Below are positions 14,501 to 55,300 of a stretch of 64,000 nucleotides of DNA, one piece after another. The notes under the pieces are model-generated. The model was not told the origin of the DNA, ran no database searches, and saw only the letters and a list, made by a program, of their open reading frames with translations. Numbering within the stretch: position 1 is the first letter of the stretch; the number at the start of each line of letters is the position of its first letter. Source of the stretch: Auanema rhodensis (taxonomy: Eukaryota > Animalia > Nematoda); NCBI GenBank assembly GCA_964057225.1, contig OZ059894.1, positions 14,446,001 to 14,510,000 on the forward strand, given 5' to 3'. Made by a program: the position numbers and the translations under genes.

Positions 14501-15367
14501 GCTACTAAGGTTTGTAATGCTTTTTTTCTCAGTTTTTAATGTTTGGATTCAAAATTTTTTTCTTTTTGTATGTGTACTGGCTAAGTTTCAATATGACTTT
14601 CTTGAAGTCTTGATCGAAACAATGACAAAGGGTTACATGCATACAACGTTGAATACATTTGAGGTATTCGAATGTGCATACGAAAACACATGCTGTTCAA
14701 TTCTGAATAATGAACTGCTGTGAATGGATAACTGGCATGCTTATAGTAGTGTGTATATAAAGGAGAGTGTGCGTGCATTTAGAGATCTGTGTAAGATGAC
14801 CAGAAACCGGACCATAACAGCAAAATCTGCATTGACACCACTATGATGGCTGCATCGACAACACTAGAGTACCTGCGACAAACGCATGGATGGTGATCAC
14901 GACAACGATGACCATGTCGTCGACCCAAATAGAGAGAGGATCACGGCAGGCTAAGTGTCAGATCGTCACATATTACCGAATCACAATTTTTCTCTATTCG
15001 TGGTTGAGGGATTTCATCGTAATTTTCCGATAGAAAAATTCTCACAAAAAAAAATGAGAGGGGTGAACAAACCACAGAAAAAAAATTTTTTCTCATTCTA
15101 CTGAAAATTCTATGGGACCGTCGTAATAAAATAAAATGAATTGTGAGCTCTTCGTAATTCCCAGTTAATTACTCATTTTGATTTCAATATAAAAGAGAAA
15201 ATATCAGTTTAGAAAACAAAACAATTATATGTAATACTTCTATACCAAGCGTTAAACATTCTTGATCCGAGTGGACTATGGATGAAGTTCTAATTAAATG
15301 TCTAGACAGATTCAAGTTATACGCATATAAGAAGAATTTTTATCGGGGAAACATACGGTTTTAGTAG

Positions 15368-15843
15368 TATAGTAAAGATTGGCAAACATAATCACATCTG
15401 TTTGAAGTATGATGATATTTCATTGTACTTTGCACCATATTCTGGCCGGAATCTTGCATAAGATGTTGTATTGGATAAGTTATTAAGTTATAGTGATGTC
15501 ATATTTTATTTTAATTCTTCAAACAACGTTGGTAAAGCTACGTGATTTGACGTGAAACGTAATTTTATTTATAATTTTTTCAGAAGTATAGGTTGCATTT
15601 ATTTTGTAAAATTTTCCAAAAAGAACTTTAAGCTATTTTAACCCCTTTAAAATGTATTGAAAAATATTTAACCTAGCAAATGTTTCTGATATTATTTATT
15701 TGCAAGATTATAATATCTAATCTACAATGTTTTCCATTTTAATGATCATCGCAGCCATAAGAAGAAGAAGAAAATACATGCCTAACCCATTTTCATGCTT
15801 CTCTCAAGCTCATTAAATGTTTCAGAAGATACAGTTATTTAAG
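15368..15843. repeat. Left copy of a 476-bp inverted repeat (partner 19161-19636)
   Basis: Reverse complement of 19161-19636, with no mismatch noticed by eye. Confidence 0.95.
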
Positions 15844-16338
15844 CACGCAACGCGTTGGGTGGAGTGAAAGAGAGTGTCGCGCTGTGCAGGGATGCAAAGG
15901 AAGGAGAGAAATTGTCAAAATCGCATTCTTTCCTTAACTTGAGACTTCCCTTTTTCTGTAGTTCTCGTTAGTTTCGTAATTATCGCTGTGGTTTCTCTTT
16001 TTTGGCATTTTGTTCTACTTTTAAAAATAATTTTCCATCAAAAAAGTAAGAATTTACATAAACATGAGGTACTTGTGCCTTTTAAGTTATAAATTCAGTT
16101 GTGTTTAAATTCATGATTAAAAAGTTTTTTTAACTGTTTCGATTTATTGCATTCGGATGAAATTTCAAAAAACTTTCCATTTTGAAAACTATCTTCTTTT
16201 TTAGTGTTTGAAAAATTATTAATTATGGATTTTTTCAAGCTATTGAAATGCTTTCATCAAATCTGTTATAAGGATCAAAATGAAGATCGGTATGTTTTGT
16301 TTATGTTTTATTTTACTAGTCAATAATCTTATTTTCAG

Positions 16339-17417
16339 TATATTGTTGTTCAAGCGAACGATCGAGTTGTTAAAGTTACTGCTGATGACGATGGAACCGT
16401 TAGCAAAGACACTCTTCGTTCTGCTTTCCAACTTGAAGCTGATGTACCGATTGGTCTATTCAAGGGCGGCAAAGCTTTAAAGTAAGTTTTTGAAGGTTTT
16501 GTTAAGATTTTACGATTTAAGACTACGATTTTCCGTTAGCAATTTTAAATAAAATTTTGAACAAACTTTTAATGTAAAATTTTAGATGTCGACAGGATTT
16601 ATTCGAGTTGGAAAATAATTGGACCGGACAGGAGTTCGAGTTACAATGGAAAGAAGCCCGACGATCGCGGCCAGCCCCACCGATGTCTGTGGAATTCGAA
16701 AAAGTAGAAAGTATGATATATTTCTATTAAATGCTTGAAAACAATAATTTAGGAACCCAGAAAGTAATCAGTGAATGGGAGAACCGAGTCTTCATGGTGT
16801 CTGGCGATGGTCTACAAGGCACTGGAATTTTTATATCGCATCAACAAATTTTAACCGCTGCACATCTCCACTTCAAGATCGACAAGTCTTATACCGTCCG
16901 AGGAACAAATGATCGTTGCTTCAGTGCCAAATGCGAATATATTTCGAAAAAATATGATTTAACAAATATGTGACTATGGTATGACTTTATTTTTGAGTTC
17001 ATAAAATTTGCAGAAAATCTTTTTTTAAATATTATTAACTATTATTTAGGGGTATCCCAATGGCATTGTCAGTTCAAAACCGTCTGTTGCAAAAGGGATT
17101 ATGGAAGGAATGATGGACGATCAAATTCACTTAGGTAAGAATGATTATACTTTATTTATTTATTATCATTATTTTTTATAATTAATCATGATAAAACAAA
17201 TTTTTCAGTTGGAGTTCCTGGATCAAGACGTGGTTATTCTGGAGCGCCGATTATCAACTATTCTGGATGTTTGACTGGGATTTTGCTCGGTGGTTCACCC
17301 GATGTGCATATTGACACAACGATTCGTGAATGTCTGGAGCCATTGGCGGAACAGAAATATACTCGAATTTTGGGAATCACTAACGTTTACATCATCTTCA
17401 GTGAAGGTTTAGTTTAA
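16339..17417 (+). pseudogene. Intracellular trypsin-like serine protease (wosp-like) with a small N-terminal domain; frameshifted
   Basis: Exons encode YIVVQANDRVVKVTADDDGTV..., GTGIFISHQQILTAAH (His), KKYDL (Asp), GYPNG and GSRRGYSGAPII (Ser). After YDL the frame stops at TGA 16971-16973 while NKYVTM|GYP continues in another frame. I found no in-frame start by canonical splicing. Confidence 0.8.
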
Positions 17418-19160
17418 TTGATTTTAACTTTTTAGTAAATTCGGACACGGAAAGTTAAATTAATCACAGATTTTCATTTTTATTGTTTAAGTGCTTATAT
17501 TTGCTTATGTGTTATGTTAACGTTTAAGTTTAAATAAAATAATTATACCTTTTCATTTATTGAGCTTATTTCTTATCTTCAGAGATAATACCACTTTCAG
17601 CGGTTCCAAAAAGAGACTACCACTTTCTTTCTAAAATCGCTATCCTTGATATTTCTAAAAGTGTGAAAAATGACACATTTTTGAGTATTTAAGTATGAAA
17701 ATAGAAAATTAAAAAATAAAATCGCCATCCCAACAAAAATTGGTTGAAAATGTACAAAAATTATTGAAAATGAGCACTTTTTCAGACTTTAAAAATTGCT
17801 CATTTTGTATTTTTTTCAAAAAAGTGTTGTAAATGAGGTGATTTTCTGACTTAAGAGAATGAAAATGTATTGATAAGATTGAAAAGACTGAAATGTCGAA
17901 AAATGGTAGTATAATCCCTCATTACTATACTACTGGTTTTGCGTCAAATGCCTCGATCCTCTTTTATACGAACATGTCTTGTTCGGTTGCTTAATTTCTC
18001 TTTTTCCATTTTAGTATCGTGATGTCTTCACCTTCTTATTCCATTTGTCGTTTTCCTCTTCGTTGTGTTCTTCTTCTGTTAATGTCATCGTCCTCCGTGG
18101 TCATGAATAACGACGACAACGACAACGACAACGACGACGGCGACCACAACCATGAATCTAAAACGACCCTTTAGTTCCGCAGTCTGATCATAGTCGCAGT
18201 CCGGTCCTTGAAGATAGGATTCTGTTTGGTGGTTTTGAGTATCACACAAAACCTTTGTGTGTGTCTGTTTTTTTATTGCCAAAAAAGAAAGAAATCAATA
18301 GAAAAATCAACAAAAAAAGAAGTACAATCTTTTATACTTGATAGAAACTTTAAAAAAGAACACAGTAATGTTTTAGACATAATGTTCTTAGTATTTAGAT
18401 AGAATTGATAATCTTTGAAATAAGGGGAACAATCTGCAAAAAAAAAATTATATGAATGGAACAAATTTTAATTCCAACTTTTTTTAGGTGTAATATTTTG
18501 TAAACAGCTTCTGAAAAAAAGTTATATTTCAAAAGATTGAGAGTTTCTTTGATAACATTTTGTTCTTGTTAATAGTTTATCAGAATTGCGCAGTCGGGTG
18601 AGCCTGTGGGGGTACCTTCGGTATGTTTACTGATTACAAATTATGTGAATGCATGTGAATTAAACATTATAGTAGGTTAGGATAAGGATGCTCCATCTAA
18701 AAGTAATGGTGCCATCAGTAAAATCGGGATCAGGTGAGGGTTTGTTGATAACCGCTTATGTTTTCCTCATGATACCATCTTCACTGTCAGTTGTCATTTC
18801 AATGCCGTTGGTAGACTTAGTTAGTGTCCCATACCAAGGTCGCAATGTTTTTTTAGCCTTTCTTGTTCTTTCTGCCTGTTTTTTGTTGTTTTGGAATTAT
18901 ATTTTCTTTTATTCGCATGTTCTAGAAAAATCTTCCTACTACGAATTTCCTGTATTTATATTGAAAGTACAAAGCGTCTAAATATTATTTTCTCACATTT
19001 CTAGCAACAAGCTATTCAATAACTCTTTTAAAAATAGGCAGCAAAGAACATGTCATCATAGAAATCTTTGTTGTATTTCAATTTGTTTCTATATATATAT
19101 GAGAGAGAGAGAGAGAAAGAGAAAGAGGGAGAGATGGAGAAAGATTAGCCAGTCAACCTT

Positions 19161-19636
19161 CTTAAATAACTGTATCTTCTGAAACATTTAATGAGCTTGA
19201 GAGAAGCATGAAAATGGGTTAGGCATGTATTTTCTTCTTCTTCTTATGGCTGCGATGATCATTAAAATGGAAAACATTGTAGATTAGATATTATAATCTT
19301 GCAAATAAATAATATCAGAAACATTTGCTAGGTTAAATATTTTTCAATACATTTTAAAGGGGTTAAAATAGCTTAAAGTTCTTTTTGGAAAATTTTACAA
19401 AATAAATGCAACCTATACTTCTGAAAAAATTATAAATAAAATTACGTTTCACGTCAAATCACGTAGCTTTACCAACGTTGTTTGAAGAATTAAAATAAAA
19501 TATGACATCACTATAACTTAATAACTTATCCAATACAACATCTTATGCAAGATTCCGGCCAGAATATGGTGCAAAGTACAATGAAATATCATCATACTTC
19601 AAACAGATGTGATTATGTTTGCCAATCTTTACTATA
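19161..19636. repeat. Right copy of the 476-bp inverted repeat, directly upstream of the SCCPDH-like gene
   Basis: cttaaataac...ctttactata is the reverse complement of 15368-15843. Confidence 0.95.
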
Positions 19637-19713: not shown

Positions 19714-21486
19714 ATGTACGATTTGGTTATTTACGGAGCCACAGGATTCACTGGTGCTTATGTAGTTGAACAACTTGTTAACTCAAAATTGTTCAAGGTA
19801 TTTTTCATTTCCAATTGATTCAATATAATCTATCACGTAACATTATGATGTTTTAAGTTCGTAAATGCTTTTTAGGATGTTAAGTTTGCCGTTGCCGGTC
19901 GTAGCGAATCAAAATTGCGTAAGATCTTGAGTGATATTTCTGATAAGACAGGTTAGATTAGTTCTTCTTTTTAGTTTATCTATTGAAAGAAATAATGTGT
20001 TATCTACTGTGTAGTTGGTAATTTATTTGAACAATTACTTTCTAGGGAAAAACATTCGTGACACTCCTGTTATTGTTGCTGATACCAAGGATGAACAAAG
20101 CTTAATTAGCATGGCCAAGCAAGCCAAAGTTATCATTAATGCTGTCGGACCAGTATGAGAATCGCTGCTGAATTTGTAATTGTTGAGATGCTATTTTAGT
20201 ATCGTCTTCACGGAGAGTCCGTTGTCAAAGCTGCTGTGGAAAATGGAGCTTCACACGTCGACATTTCCGGAGAGCCAGCATATTTAGAAAAAATGCAAGA
20301 CAAGTATGCTGAAACTGCCAAAAAAAATGTTAGCCTTGTGTACATTTCCTTAAAAATATATTCTTTCTTAGAACGTTTATATTGTTGGAGCTTGTGGATG
20401 GGATTCTATCCCATGTGATTTGGGAATTAATTTCTTGAAAAATAATTTCAGTGGAGACTTGAATCATGCTGAAACATTCGTTCAATTAAATAATGGACCA
20501 GAAGTAGATTAATCTTCATATAAATAAGACAACACTTGAAATGTTTGCAGGGTTATGCTATCAATGCTGGAACATATCAAACTCTTATCTTGGGAATTAG
20601 TGAAGCAGCTAAGGATGGACTTGGAGGAATCCGCCGCAGAATTATGCCTGTCAAGATACCTCGTTCTAATGTTAAAGCACCAAAGAGGTAGATTTAGAAC
20701 ATTCATTTCATATCTTATATTAAAACTTCAGATCAACTTTATGGCAAGTTGATGAACCCGTCATTGGCGGATGGGCCTTACCTTTCATGGGATCTGATAA
20801 ATCTGTTGTTCAACGATCTCAATATTTCGGGTATACTTTGGATGGAAAGCGTCCAGCTCAAGTTGAAACTTACCTCCGCATATCATCCTTCCTCTGGGCA
20901 GCTCTTTTCATGGCTTGGTTAACTGTTTTCTTCTTCCTGTGCATGTTCAAGCCAACTAGAAAGTTCCTTCAAGCTTATCCTGATTTATGCAGTTTCAATC
21001 TTTTCAAGGTATTCTTATCGTTCAAGCATGAGTAAACTACTAATTTTTAGAACTCTGGACCCACTCAAGCTCAGATGGAAGGTGCTTCCTTCACATACTG
21101 GCTTGTGGGAACTGGTTTCAACCAATCACTTCCTGCTGATGAATTACACAGCGAGAAGCCAAACAAGAAGGTAAATTTCATGCTTTACATCTCAGCAAAA
21201 TCTATGAATTTCAGGTAATCGCTAAATGCGAGGGACCTGACTGCGGTTACTTGGCTACTTCCGGATGTGTCTTATCATCAGCCTTATCTATTTTGAAGGA
21301 TAAGGATACTTTACCCGCTGAGTAATTTAATGTAGAGTTATAGTTAATCTGATTCAAATACTTTTCAGCGGAGGAGTCTATACAACTGCTGCTGCTTTTG
21401 GAAAAACAAAGATCTATGAATACTTGTCTTCTTTTGGAATTAAGTTTTCAAAAGTAACCGAGGAAGAGCTTAAGAACAAACATTAG
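19714..21486 (+). CDS. SCCPDH: Saccharopine dehydrogenase-like oxidoreductase
   Basis: MYDLVIYGATGFTG Rossmann motif, FAVAGRSESKL, INAVGPYRLHGE, GACGWDSIPCD, GPDCGYLATS, GGVYTTAAAF. Confidence 0.92.
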
Positions 21487-52331: not shown

Positions 52332-55300
52332 TTACTCACCAATCACATTAATTTCAAAATCTGAAAGATAAATATAAATAAAAATTTCTATTTTTAAGTC
52401 AAATACCAAAGTTTTCTTCTTCCTTTGTTGGAGGTAAAACTATTTGTTTCCATAACGGGGAAGAATCAGTCGGAGTTGAAACAACGGGTGGTGATGGTGT
52501 TGTAGTTGTTGTTTTGATTTGAGTTGGTCTTGGGGGGGTGGTAGACTAAAACGGAAAATATGAAATGAATATCTATCGTAGTAAACATACTTTGACTAAT
52601 ATACGGAAGAATTGGCCTGGAACTTCTTCTTCGTAATCATCATCATTCTTTGATCCATCAATTTCAATAATTTCTTCCATAGTAAGTGATGGTTTAGTGG
52701 TTATATGGTCTACCAGAGGTCTAAAATATTGAAAAATTGAAGAAATAGAATCAACATCATCATCTAAATCTAACCTGTAGTGTTCAATAGGTCTTTGGGT
52801 TGTTGAATAAGGTGATGGATAACGATTATCTCTTGGAATAGCTGTAGTGTATCTTGGGTATGATGGATACGTTGGAGGTGGTATATATGGACGAAGAGTA
52901 GGAGTTGGAAGAGTTTTTGGAACTGAAACTACAGGTCTTGGAGTAGTTGATGTTGTGGATGGTGGCGTCGTCGTTGTAGTTGTAGTAGTAGAAGTTGATG
53001 TACTGGTGCTAAATGTGGTTGTTGGTACTATTCTCGGAACAAATGGCGTGGTTATGATATAAGGAATTGGTGCAAAAGTTGGACGAGGTGTTGAAGGACG
53101 AGCATAAGATTGAGAAGGTTGTTGATTATGATGAGGTTGACGGTAACGTGATGCTTCTTCTGGAGTTATAGCCGGAGTCCACTGATGTCGCGACTGTTGA
53201 GGTACAGGTCGTACAGGCTGTTGTGGCTGTGAAACTTGTGGAAGACGTGGTCGAGAAGTATGAATTGAAGAGCGCCGATCAACTTGATTATAAGAGTCAA
53301 GAACCTGACGATGATATTGAACTGGTAAACCAATTAAAGGATTGTTCTTTAATCCTGTCCATGATAACTTTTCATAATGGTATCCACGACCTTCAGGATT
53401 AACATCATATCGTATAAAGAAATATTTCTGAAAATGAATTTAATGATTAATTACAGAATCATATAGTATTACTAACCTCTTTAGGACCCATTTGTTGTGT
53501 TTGATGAACAGGTTGATAATAATATTGTTGTTGTTGTTGTGTTTGAGTATTTTGATTATAACCATTATTATTATTATTATTTTGATTATAATGATTATTA
53601 GGATTAGTTTTCTGAAGAAGAAAGTAGAAAATGCAATTTTCATGATAGATACTGTATAAGATGTGAGATTTACCTGCTGATTAACATCAGGATTAGATGT
53701 TGGATAAATTTTTCTTGGAGGAATTTTTTGTTTTTTCTTCATTTTTTCTTTTTTTCTCATTAAAGGATCTGATTGAATTCTTTGATTTTGATAATTATTA
53801 TAATCAGTTGGATTAATTCTTGGCATTGAAACCTATAATATCAAAAACAAAATCCAAAATCCTATGATGAGATGTTGAACTTGCATATTGTGTTTGTTGA
53901 TTTGAACTTGGATGTAATATCACAAGAACACTTCTATTCGTTGTTGTGCGACCATTATCAGATACAGTAACCTGAGGCTTTGAGCTGAATCTGAATAATG
54001 ACTCATGATTTATTCAATTCTATCTATTATAACTATATTACTGATAAATTTGATTTCCATTCTCATCAGTAATATTTTGCCAATCTCCTGGCTGAAAAAC
54101 AATTTCTTCGGGACTATTTCTCATTTCAGCATATGTAATAGCTTCGTTATTTGAATGGTACCCAGCATACGGTACTGCTGGATGAACTTCCACATTTTGA
54201 ACTGCTTCCCGTTGATTAGCAACTGTTGAATCCTAGACAAAGAGATTTGTTTCTATCAATCTATTCTCAGAGTTTTTTATTTTTTTAAAAAAAGTTTCGT
54301 GGGTGTTATAGGCAAACGCATGTTAAACAAATTTTTCTCAAAATGATCTATGACATACCGAGCTGGTGATGCCTTCAGACTGATACTGAGCTTGATGATG
54401 TTGCTGAGCTGATCCAACTACTAACTGTTGTTGATTTGAATATTGCGAAGCAGACTGCTGGTTCTGTGGTTGTTGATGGTACTGTTGTTGGTGCTGTATG
54501 ACAGGCTGTCGACCAGAACTTCTCATATCATCCACAGAAGATTGTGTCAATCCAAATTGTTGTAGTACTTCCGGCGATAATGACGGTCCCTAATACAACT
54601 TCAATATCTATATTGTATTTAACATTAAAATTTCAAAAAAATGATACATTTTGACGTCCCCAATATTCCCAATCAATTCCTGGACCAATTCCTGGTTCAG
54701 CTAAACTACCACATATTTCCATACAATGATTATAAGAGTAATAACGATTCTCATTTCCACCACATCCAGACCACCAACTAAGAAAAGAGATCAAATAAGT
54801 TTTTACTTTTTAATTATATTATTATAATATTTTCTAATTATATATAATCGATAATATTAGGGCTGAAAACTTATGATATGAGATTTAACTAAGAAAATAC
54901 AGTAAAAGCAAGTGTTCCCTTTCCCCAATTCCCTTTTTCTATTTTGAATTTTAAAAAAATGAATTTAAGAATCTTACCTACAAACACATTGTTTCTTGTT
55001 AATATCAAAATGCCATCGTTCAATATCACTTTGGCAATGTCCTGGATCATGTGGTAATCGACATCTATCAGTACGCTCTGGCTCACGGAAGAAACACGAT
55101 GAAGAACATTCTGAATACATAACGTCTTCAGAAAAGACCGTTAAGATTCAGAATATACCTTCAAGACTATTAAAGTTATTGCTGTTTCCTCCACATCCAC
55201 TGTAATAAAACTCACGACATCGATGATCATACCGGTCATAATACCTTAAAAATTATAAAATTATATATAAATATATAAATATAAATTATTTACCATTTAA

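What the first reader, a model, noticed from the sequence alone, without database searches (positions are those of the whole stretch)
15357..17940. Cargo-only mini-Maverick: 2.6-kb element with Polinton-type ends carrying a spliced protease gene
Seen: AGTAGTATAGTAA (15363) ... TTACTATACTACT (17934), flanked by identical GGTTTT hexamers and enclosing one intron-containing protease gene and no recognisable replication, integration or capsid gene. Known: Mavericks/Polintons have AG...CT (often AGTAGT) termini and 6-bp target-site duplications, are normally about 15-20 kb, and nematode Mavericks carry wosp protease cargo that moves horizontally between species. Inference: either a non-autonomous gene-shuttling mini-element mobilised in trans, or a full Maverick that collapsed after insertion.
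Basis: partly seen in the sequence, partly recalled or inferred. Interest (0 to 1): 0.92.

Follow-up and report, generated by a model that had tools for sequence, protein, structure and literature searches.

The report
Collapsed Maverick with broken protease cargo
A 2.6-kb stretch in a likely nematode genome has the ends of a virus-like jumping element and a spliced but broken protease gene, and its left part is an exact inverted copy of neighbouring DNA, so it is probably a leftover that shrank where it sits rather than a mobile gene shuttle.

Summary
AGTAGT…ACTACT ends (13-bp perfect inverted repeat) sit between two GGTTTT hexamers; 8 of 200 shuffles gave such a pair, 0 of 200 with an AG start. 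The right end is a real family terminus: two contigs of another sample stop matching at 17934 and run into other flanks.

(1) Bases 15368-15843 are a 476/476 inverted copy of 19161-19636, 1.2 kb outside the element, starting on an 8-nt word shared with the terminus. The element keeps one long terminal block (about 380 bp) and only 13 bp of the other end. (2) The WASP/WOSP-type protease gene is spliced but broken: no start codon joins its frame, and 64 nt present in a 96%-identical relative are missing after the catalytic Asp.

The unit is single-copy in its genome, and no empty site was seen in 8 of 8 runs laid. Best reading (0.65): a Maverick insertion that later collapsed in place by deletion with a templated filler. 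A short derivative that arrived in trans before that event is not excluded (0.15). No link of this terminus to polymerase or integrase genes could be tested.

The parts
15357..15362 (.). left copy of the 6-bp target-site duplication (GGTTTT)
15363..15375 (+). left terminus, (AGT)2 motif; all that remains of the left inverted repeat (13 bp perfect, 16 bp at 94%)
   Evidence: motif as in PMC8097293
15368..15843 (-). 476-bp exact inverted copy of 19161-19636; begins on the 8-nt word TATAGTAA shared with the terminus; inferred templated filler at the deletion junction
   Evidence: 0 mismatches in 476; a separate 476-nt contig at depth 86 against about 50 for its neighbours in run X1
15844..16224 (+). 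5' region of the cargo gene; relatives exist elsewhere (organism D from 15894; a diverged contig in X10 from about 15840)
16225..17417 (+). WASP/WOSP-type gene (ubiquitin-like N-domain plus HtrA-like protease), six exons; introns 16290-16338, 16482-16585, 16711-16752, 16979-17049, 17135-17208; spliced but broken
   Evidence: splice joints in contig 10 of run X11; homologues; fold of intact relative P0002; frame analysis
16960..16962 (+). site where 64 nt (net) present in relatives are missing, just after the catalytic Asp motif; the frame ends soon after
   Evidence: organism D contigs carry 65 letters in place of 1; 22 residues in P0001 and P0002 against 2 nt here
17554..17934 (-). long terminal block (about 350-380 bp; inner limit approximate), inferred surviving Maverick TIR, next to the 3' end of the cargo gene; ends in (ACT)2
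   Evidence: 99% identical contig in run X17 whose match ends at 17934; many diverged relatives in runs X1 and X9
17935..17940 (.). right copy of the target-site duplication (GGTTTT)
19161..19636 (+). inferred donor of the 476-bp filler; lies 78 bp upstream of the start codon of the neighbouring host gene
   Evidence: junction at 19636/19637 bridged in run X9
19714..21486 (+). neighbouring host gene, saccharopine-dehydrogenase-like oxidoreductase (name mainly from recalled motifs; Pfam support weak); context only
   Evidence: eight splice joints in run X11; PF03435 E=0.088 on one exon

Best explanation
This is likely the remnant of a Maverick (Polinton) insertion that collapsed where it sits: it has (AGT)2/(ACT)2 ends, a 6-bp duplication, one long terminal block, a broken WASP/WOSP-type protease gene and a 476-bp inverted copy of neighbouring DNA. 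Inferred order: (1) a Maverick carrying the protease next to one TIR integrated and duplicated GGTTTT; (2) a break or stalled fork just inside the other TIR was repaired by template switching, the end annealing through the shared word TATAGTAA at 19629-19636, copying 476 bp of nearby DNA in inverted orientation, then rejoining upstream of the cargo gene at 15844, so that everything between was lost; (3) the protease gene lost its frame at two places, before or after step 2, and is still spliced. Shown: the anatomy, the exact duplication, single-copy status, the shared right terminus, the gene breaks. Inferred: Maverick ancestry of the terminal block, the direction of copying, the repair route, the size of what was lost.
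For: End motif and 6-bp duplication match the published Maverick signature and are rare by chance. In run X17 two contigs stop matching at 17934 and continue into other sequence; one is 99% identical over 17554-17934. The block abuts the 3' end of the cargo gene, as reported for the C. bovis Maverick, and nematode Mavericks carry intron-bearing WASP cargo between a TIR and the integrase. The N-terminal exon is 70-81% identical to Mesorhabditis and Caenorhabditis proteins whose protease halves are distant, the modular pattern reported for WASP cargo. The 476-bp piece is exact, sharply bounded and forms its own contig between single contigs; its partner lies 1.2 kb from this insertion. Family-like sequence starts at the junction: a diverged contig in X10 begins at about 15840 (read from distances to the contig end; weak), and organism D's contig runs on into 82 other letters before 15894. 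Both flank junctions and the cargo lie on contigs of single depth in X1. Most vertebrate Maverick loci are degraded (96%); C. elegans has Polinton remnants tied to local rearrangements and templated insertions of 200-4000 bp with deletion in a repair mutant.
Against: No genome is held, so the terminal block was never shown on an element with polymerase and integrase genes, and no nematode Maverick end sequence was found to compare. No empty site was seen in 8 of 8 runs laid, though only organism A and C runs hold this locus and all carry the element. The direction of the 476-bp copy is inferred; TATAGTAA is common here (7 of 32 two-kb tiles), so its presence alone proves little. X1 may be the source of the window and is not independent. 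In 80% of published cases no Maverick gene was found near a WASP gene (47 of 235 linked). The size of the lost part is unknown.
Confidence: 0.65

Rival explanations
1. What inserted here was already a short, cargo-only Maverick derivative with two full TIRs, moved in trans; only its left TIR was later replaced by the 476-bp local copy.
For: The filler hides how much was lost, so a short precursor fits the locus equally well. A 99% identical terminal block, adjoining a 96% identical 3' part of the protease, exists at another site in run X17. Auanema rhodensis is listed among species with complete Polintons, so helpers exist in at least one genus with close cargo homologues.
Against: No second copy of the cargo in organism A (single depth over 15814-17777). 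The X17 copy is seen only in short contigs and switches to other sequence before 17128, so its size is unknown. Searches turned up no such mobile derivative; one paper notes an apparent absence of nonautonomous copies in the anole.
Confidence: 0.15
2. The 476-bp piece belongs to the element, or to a larger 4.3-kb unit (15368-19636) whose TIRs are the two arms, and the arm at 19161-19636 is the derived copy or a true right end.
For: Two arms of 476 bp at 100% identity look like fresh TIRs; a TA dinucleotide flanks 15370-19634. A MULE with 870-bp TIRs captured a WASP gene in C. briggsae.
Against: No direct repeat of 2-10 bp flanks 15368-19636, and the TA is automatic for an inverted repeat that starts with TA. 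The arms form one 476-nt contig at under twice single depth, not a family. This reading leaves unexplained why AGTAG plus GGTTTT sit directly outside the left arm and match the verified terminus at 17934.
Confidence: 0.09
3. A non-Maverick DNA transposon with 6-bp duplications captured the protease; the AGTAGT ends are a coincidence of family motif.
For: No Maverick core gene in the element, or among 49 other frames of 90 aa or more in the window. Another transposon class has captured such a gene before. That some hAT groups make 6-bp duplications is recalled, not from a call.
Against: End motif, duplication length, cargo family and cargo orientation all match Mavericks together.
Confidence: 0.06
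4. The 2.6-kb unit as it stands is a mobile mini-element that shuttles the protease.
For: Both extreme termini and the duplication are perfect; the cargo has 96% identical relatives in another organism.
Against: Single copy; only 13 bp of the left end remain; the left 476 bp duplicate DNA next to this site; the cargo is broken at two places.
Confidence: 0.05

Closest known systems
Nematode Mavericks carrying WASP (later WOSP) protease cargo (Widen et al., bioRxiv 10.1101/2022.07.12.499685)
   Same: Intron-bearing cargo of ubiquitin-like domain plus HtrA-like protease, 3' end next to a TIR; modular N-domain; near-identical copies in other organisms; most copies incomplete or pseudogenised.
   Different: Here no core gene is left, one end is cut to 13 bp, the gap is filled with an inverted copy of local DNA, and the cargo is broken.
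Polinton remnants and TIR-derived repeats at C. elegans eri-6/7 (PMC11414722)
   Same: Partly deleted Polintons and leftover TIRs tied to local rearrangements.
   Different: There the repeats are TIR sequence and mediate inversion and trans-splicing of a host gene; here the repeat is likely host DNA copied into the element, with no function shown.
Vertebrate Mavericks with 5'-(AGT)2//(ACT)2-3' ends and 6-bp duplications (PMC8097293)
   Same: End motif and duplication length; 96% of loci are degraded.
   Different: Intact elements are 12.7-24.6 kb with TIRs of 46-1,447 bp and eight core genes.
Templated insertions with deletion in C. elegans (PMC8078821)
   Same: Insertions of 200-4000 bp copied from elsewhere on the chromosome with loss at the acceptor site.
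   Different: Seen in a rip-1 mutant and between homeologous sequences; here the shared stretch is 8 nt and the donor is adjacent and inverted.

Membership tests
Maverick/Polinton (intact) | 5'-(AGT)2 ... (ACT)2-3' or similar end motif | tested here: met
Maverick/Polinton (intact) | 6-bp (5-8 bp) target-site duplication | tested here: met
   only k=6 fits among 2-10; definition
Maverick/Polinton (intact) | two long TIRs (100-1500 bp; 46-1447 in vertebrates) | tested here: not met
   13 bp perfect, 16 bp at 94%, then background
Maverick/Polinton (intact) | 13-25 kb with pPolB, integrase, ATPase, protease and capsid genes | tested here: not met
   2572 bp; longest frame 90 aa; no such Pfam family in the frames scanned
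Maverick/Polinton (remnant) | terminal sequence shared with an element that encodes pPolB and integrase | not testable with these tools
   no genome; no relatives in viral or metagenome collections
Maverick/Polinton (remnant) | terminus shared with copies at other sites | tested here: met
   two X17 contigs end their match at 17934 and run on; right end only
Mobile non-autonomous derivative (MITE/Ds-like) | same-structure copies at several sites with different duplications | tested here: not met
   single-depth contigs across both junctions and the cargo in X1
Mobile non-autonomous derivative (MITE/Ds-like) | empty site in related genomes | tested here: inconclusive
   no 15362-to-17941 joint in 8 of 8 runs laid; the runs that hold the locus all carry the element
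WASP/WOSP proteases | N-terminal ubiquitin-like domain plus HtrA-like serine protease without PDZ | tested here: met
   relative P0002: Trypsin_2 E=8e-9, model matches DegS/DegP/HtrA, strand-rich N-domain; window exon 2 TDP-43_N E=0.079, weak
WASP/WOSP proteases | His-Asp-Ser triad in one reading frame | tested here: not met
   all three motifs are present in the DNA but the spliced frame ends after 162 codons, before the Ser exon
WASP/WOSP proteases | sequence homology to named members of the published set | not tested
   no named member was obtained; hits are unnamed proteins of Auanema, Caenorhabditis and Mesorhabditis
MULE/Pack-MULE or Tc1-like unit bounded by the 476-bp arms | 9-bp or TA duplication and a multi-copy TIR family | tested here: not met
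   no direct repeat around 15368-19636; one 476-nt contig only

The most novel reading that the evidence does not exclude
Nematodes harbour a family of short, cargo-only Maverick derivatives (two TIRs plus a WASP/WOSP gene) that are copied, and perhaps packaged, in trans by full Mavericks and move cargo between species; this locus would be one such insertion, later damaged at its left end, and the 99% identical terminus in run X17 a sibling.
Probability: 0.15. Interest if true: 0.75.

Novelty: new member of a known kind. Interest (0 to 1): 0.35.

Why it matters
As a remnant it is ordinary in kind, but it is an unusually clean snapshot of how a Maverick can shed its core in one step and leave a transferred cargo gene behind under new upstream DNA. 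That offers one route to the 80% of WASP genes found without Maverick neighbours. The exact 476-bp copy suggests the event is very recent or homogenised, so strains with the earlier state may exist. If instead a family of short derivatives moves in trans, Mavericks would have satellite-like passengers, which would change how nematode horizontal transfer is modelled.

Tried and rejected
No whole genome is held. Protein-based locus searches found no relative in viral contigs (10 pattern matches, none confirmed) or metagenome contigs (127 matches, none confirmed). An 18-nt subterminal pattern gave 5 viral hits with no further similarity: chance. The terminal 20-mer gave 2 metagenome hits: L007 looks like a chance hit in a prokaryotic or viral coding region; L006 shares only the last 20 nt and does not align further; about one hit is expected by chance (rough estimate, not computed). 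Runs X16, X20 and X17 give no cover over 15200-15878; lack of cover is not used as evidence. No listed holder is on record as RNA; X11 and X20 are RNA by guess, supported by spliced joints. Only 8 of 20 listed runs were laid. A joint 15590-17587 in X1 has a 24-nt side and was set aside as spurious. Single-strand folding of the terminal block is unremarkable (z -1.76). The sigma-70 scan does not apply to a eukaryote. The protein atlas gave no answer. The PMC10748475 supplement holds no AGTAGT text; preprint supplements, which may list nematode Maverick ends and named WASP sequences, were not seen. Three look-ups in earlier findings returned nothing. The host species was not established: cargo homologues point to Auanema, but this gene family moves between species.

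Full report
OBSERVATION. The described features are present: GGTTTT at 15357-15362 and 17935-17940, and a 13-bp perfect inverted repeat starting AGTAGT at 15363 and ending ACTACT at 17934. It extends to 16 bp at 94% and no further. Only a 6-bp direct repeat fits among lengths 2-10. In 200 locally shuffled windows, 8 held a 13-bp inverted repeat with a 6-bp direct repeat within 25 kb, none starting with AG. The motif 5'-(AGT)2//(ACT)2-3' with 6-bp duplications is the commonest vertebrate Maverick signature (PMC8097293, passages). Nematode Polintons are defined by 100-1500 bp TIRs and 5-8 bp duplications (10.1101/2023.08.22.554363, passages).

THE RIGHT END IS A FAMILY TERMINUS. No genome is held, so I laid contigs of 8 of 20 listed public runs on the region. 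In metagenome run X17 one contig matches 17554-17934 with 4 differences and 1 gap and continues 188 letters into other DNA; a second, diverged contig also ends its match at 17934. An overlapping X17 contig holds 17128-17583, the 3' part of the protease, at 96%. In organism A the middle of this block has many diverged relatives. The block lies at the 3' end of the cargo gene. In the C. bovis Maverick the TIR joins the 3' ends of pPolB and the cargo gene, and nematode Mavericks carry intron-bearing cargo in 2-5 kb between a TIR and the integrase (10.1101/2022.07.12.499685, parts 1-5 of 7 read). I infer that 17554-17934 is a surviving TIR. I could not show it on an element with core genes.

THE LEFT END IS NOT A TIR. 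Bases 15368-15843 equal the reverse complement of 19161-19636 with 0 mismatches in 476 and sharp limits. The partner lies 1,221 bp beyond the element and 78 bp before the start of a spliced host gene. It is not an assembly artefact: run X1 has a contig of exactly these 476 nt at depth 86 between contigs near 50, and X9 bridges the partner's right junction; X1 may be the window's source. The copy starts on TATAGTAA, bases 6-13 of the terminus. That word is common (7 of 32 tiles); what counts is that the limit of the copy falls on it. From about 15840 the sequence again has relatives elsewhere (X10, weak; organism D from 15894, whose contig runs into 82 other letters). The simplest reading is a deletion from base 14 of one TIR to just upstream of the cargo gene, filled by template switching onto nearby DNA. 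Because the likely donor is adjacent to this insertion site, the present structure would have formed here. Deletions with templated insertions of 200-4000 bp are described in a C. elegans repair mutant (PMC8078821, passages), and Polinton remnants with local rearrangements at eri-6/7 (PMC11414722, passages). The reverse direction of copying is not excluded.

THE CARGO. Exon 4 is 83% identical to an Auanema sp. JU1783 protein and 80% to unnamed P0002. A profile search found 29 relatives; the named ones are from Auanema, Caenorhabditis and Mesorhabditis. The model of intact P0002 (mean pLDDT 69) matches DegS, DegP and HtrA, as published for WASP proteases. Exon 2 is 81% identical to a Mesorhabditis protein and 70-72% to three Caenorhabditis proteins whose protease halves fall outside the clade of P0001/P0002 in the tree, where the Mesorhabditis protein and eight short proteins were left out. 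This is the modular pattern reported for Maverick cargo. Organism D holds the gene at 95.7% over 1,485 nt including introns, gaps excluded; whether this reflects transfer or close kinship was not tested. A 967-nt contig of likely RNA run X11 shows five GT-AG introns and no mismatch in the four exon pieces listed. On that splice path none of six ATGs between 15903 and the first donor joins the protease frame open, and the frame ends after 162 codons. At 16960-16962 organism D has 65 letters in place of 1, and P0001 and P0002 have 22 residues where the window has 2 nt. The gene is a spliced pseudogene.

MOBILITY. In X1 both flank junctions and 15814-17777 lie on single-depth contigs, so there is no near-identical sibling in that genome. 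No empty-site joint appeared in 8 of 8 runs; this is inconclusive because the runs holding the locus all carry the element. No core gene was found in the element or in 49 other long frames of the window.

RIVALS. The filler hides how much was lost, so a short two-TIR derivative may have inserted first (0.15). The 476-bp arms as ends of a 4.3-kb unit, or the reverse direction of copying (0.09), lack a duplication and a family. A non-Maverick transposon (0.06) would have to match motif, duplication, cargo and orientation by coincidence. The unit as a mobile shuttle in its present form (0.05) conflicts with single copy, one-sided TIR, local filler and broken cargo.

COMPARISON AND NOVELTY. It fails the test for an intact Maverick (TIRs, size, core genes) and for a mobile non-autonomous family (no siblings). 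It is best filed as a likely Maverick remnant. Degraded Mavericks are the rule. Searches showed no described mobile cargo-only Maverick; I read passages of 10.1101/2025.02.07.637071, PMC5718144, PMC2836005, PMC3014272 and PMC6431247 and only listings for the rest. The library lacks most subscription papers, Repbase was not searched, and preprint supplements were not seen. Verdict: real feature, new member of a known kind, interest 0.35; the mini-element family reading has probability 0.15 and would deserve 0.75.

Noticed in passing
window 15451-16007: A low-depth contig of likely RNA run X11 spans the filler/cargo junction without mismatch; it may be a transcript starting in the copied DNA, or contaminating DNA.
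   Followed up: no
window 15903: Organism D's likely RNA contig begins here with a short foreign leader resembling a template-switch adapter (recalled), which would place the cargo gene's start near 15903.
   Followed up: no
window 17128: The X17 copy of the protease 3' part switches to other sequence before this position, suggesting an independent rearrangement or insertion in that copy.
   Followed up: no
window 17379-17553: The gene's last codons and 3' end differ from organism D's copy and from P0001/P0002 but continue in the X17 copy: likely recombination between cargo variants.
   Followed up: partly
window 17736-17886: Core of a diverged repeat family in organism A (summed depth up to 906 against about 52 in X1; mostly 80-95% alike); relatives also in organism D.
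   Followed up: partly
L006:899-1213: AT-rich eukaryote-like contig with internal inverted repeats that shares the element's last 20 nt; possibly a terminus of a distant element, possibly chance.
   Followed up: partly
window 52573-53832 (- strand): Two adjacent open frames of 288 and 130 aa with no Pfam match.
   Followed up: no
window 14899-14925 and 18110-18145: Related GAC/AAC-rich short repeats on either side of the element.
   Followed up: no
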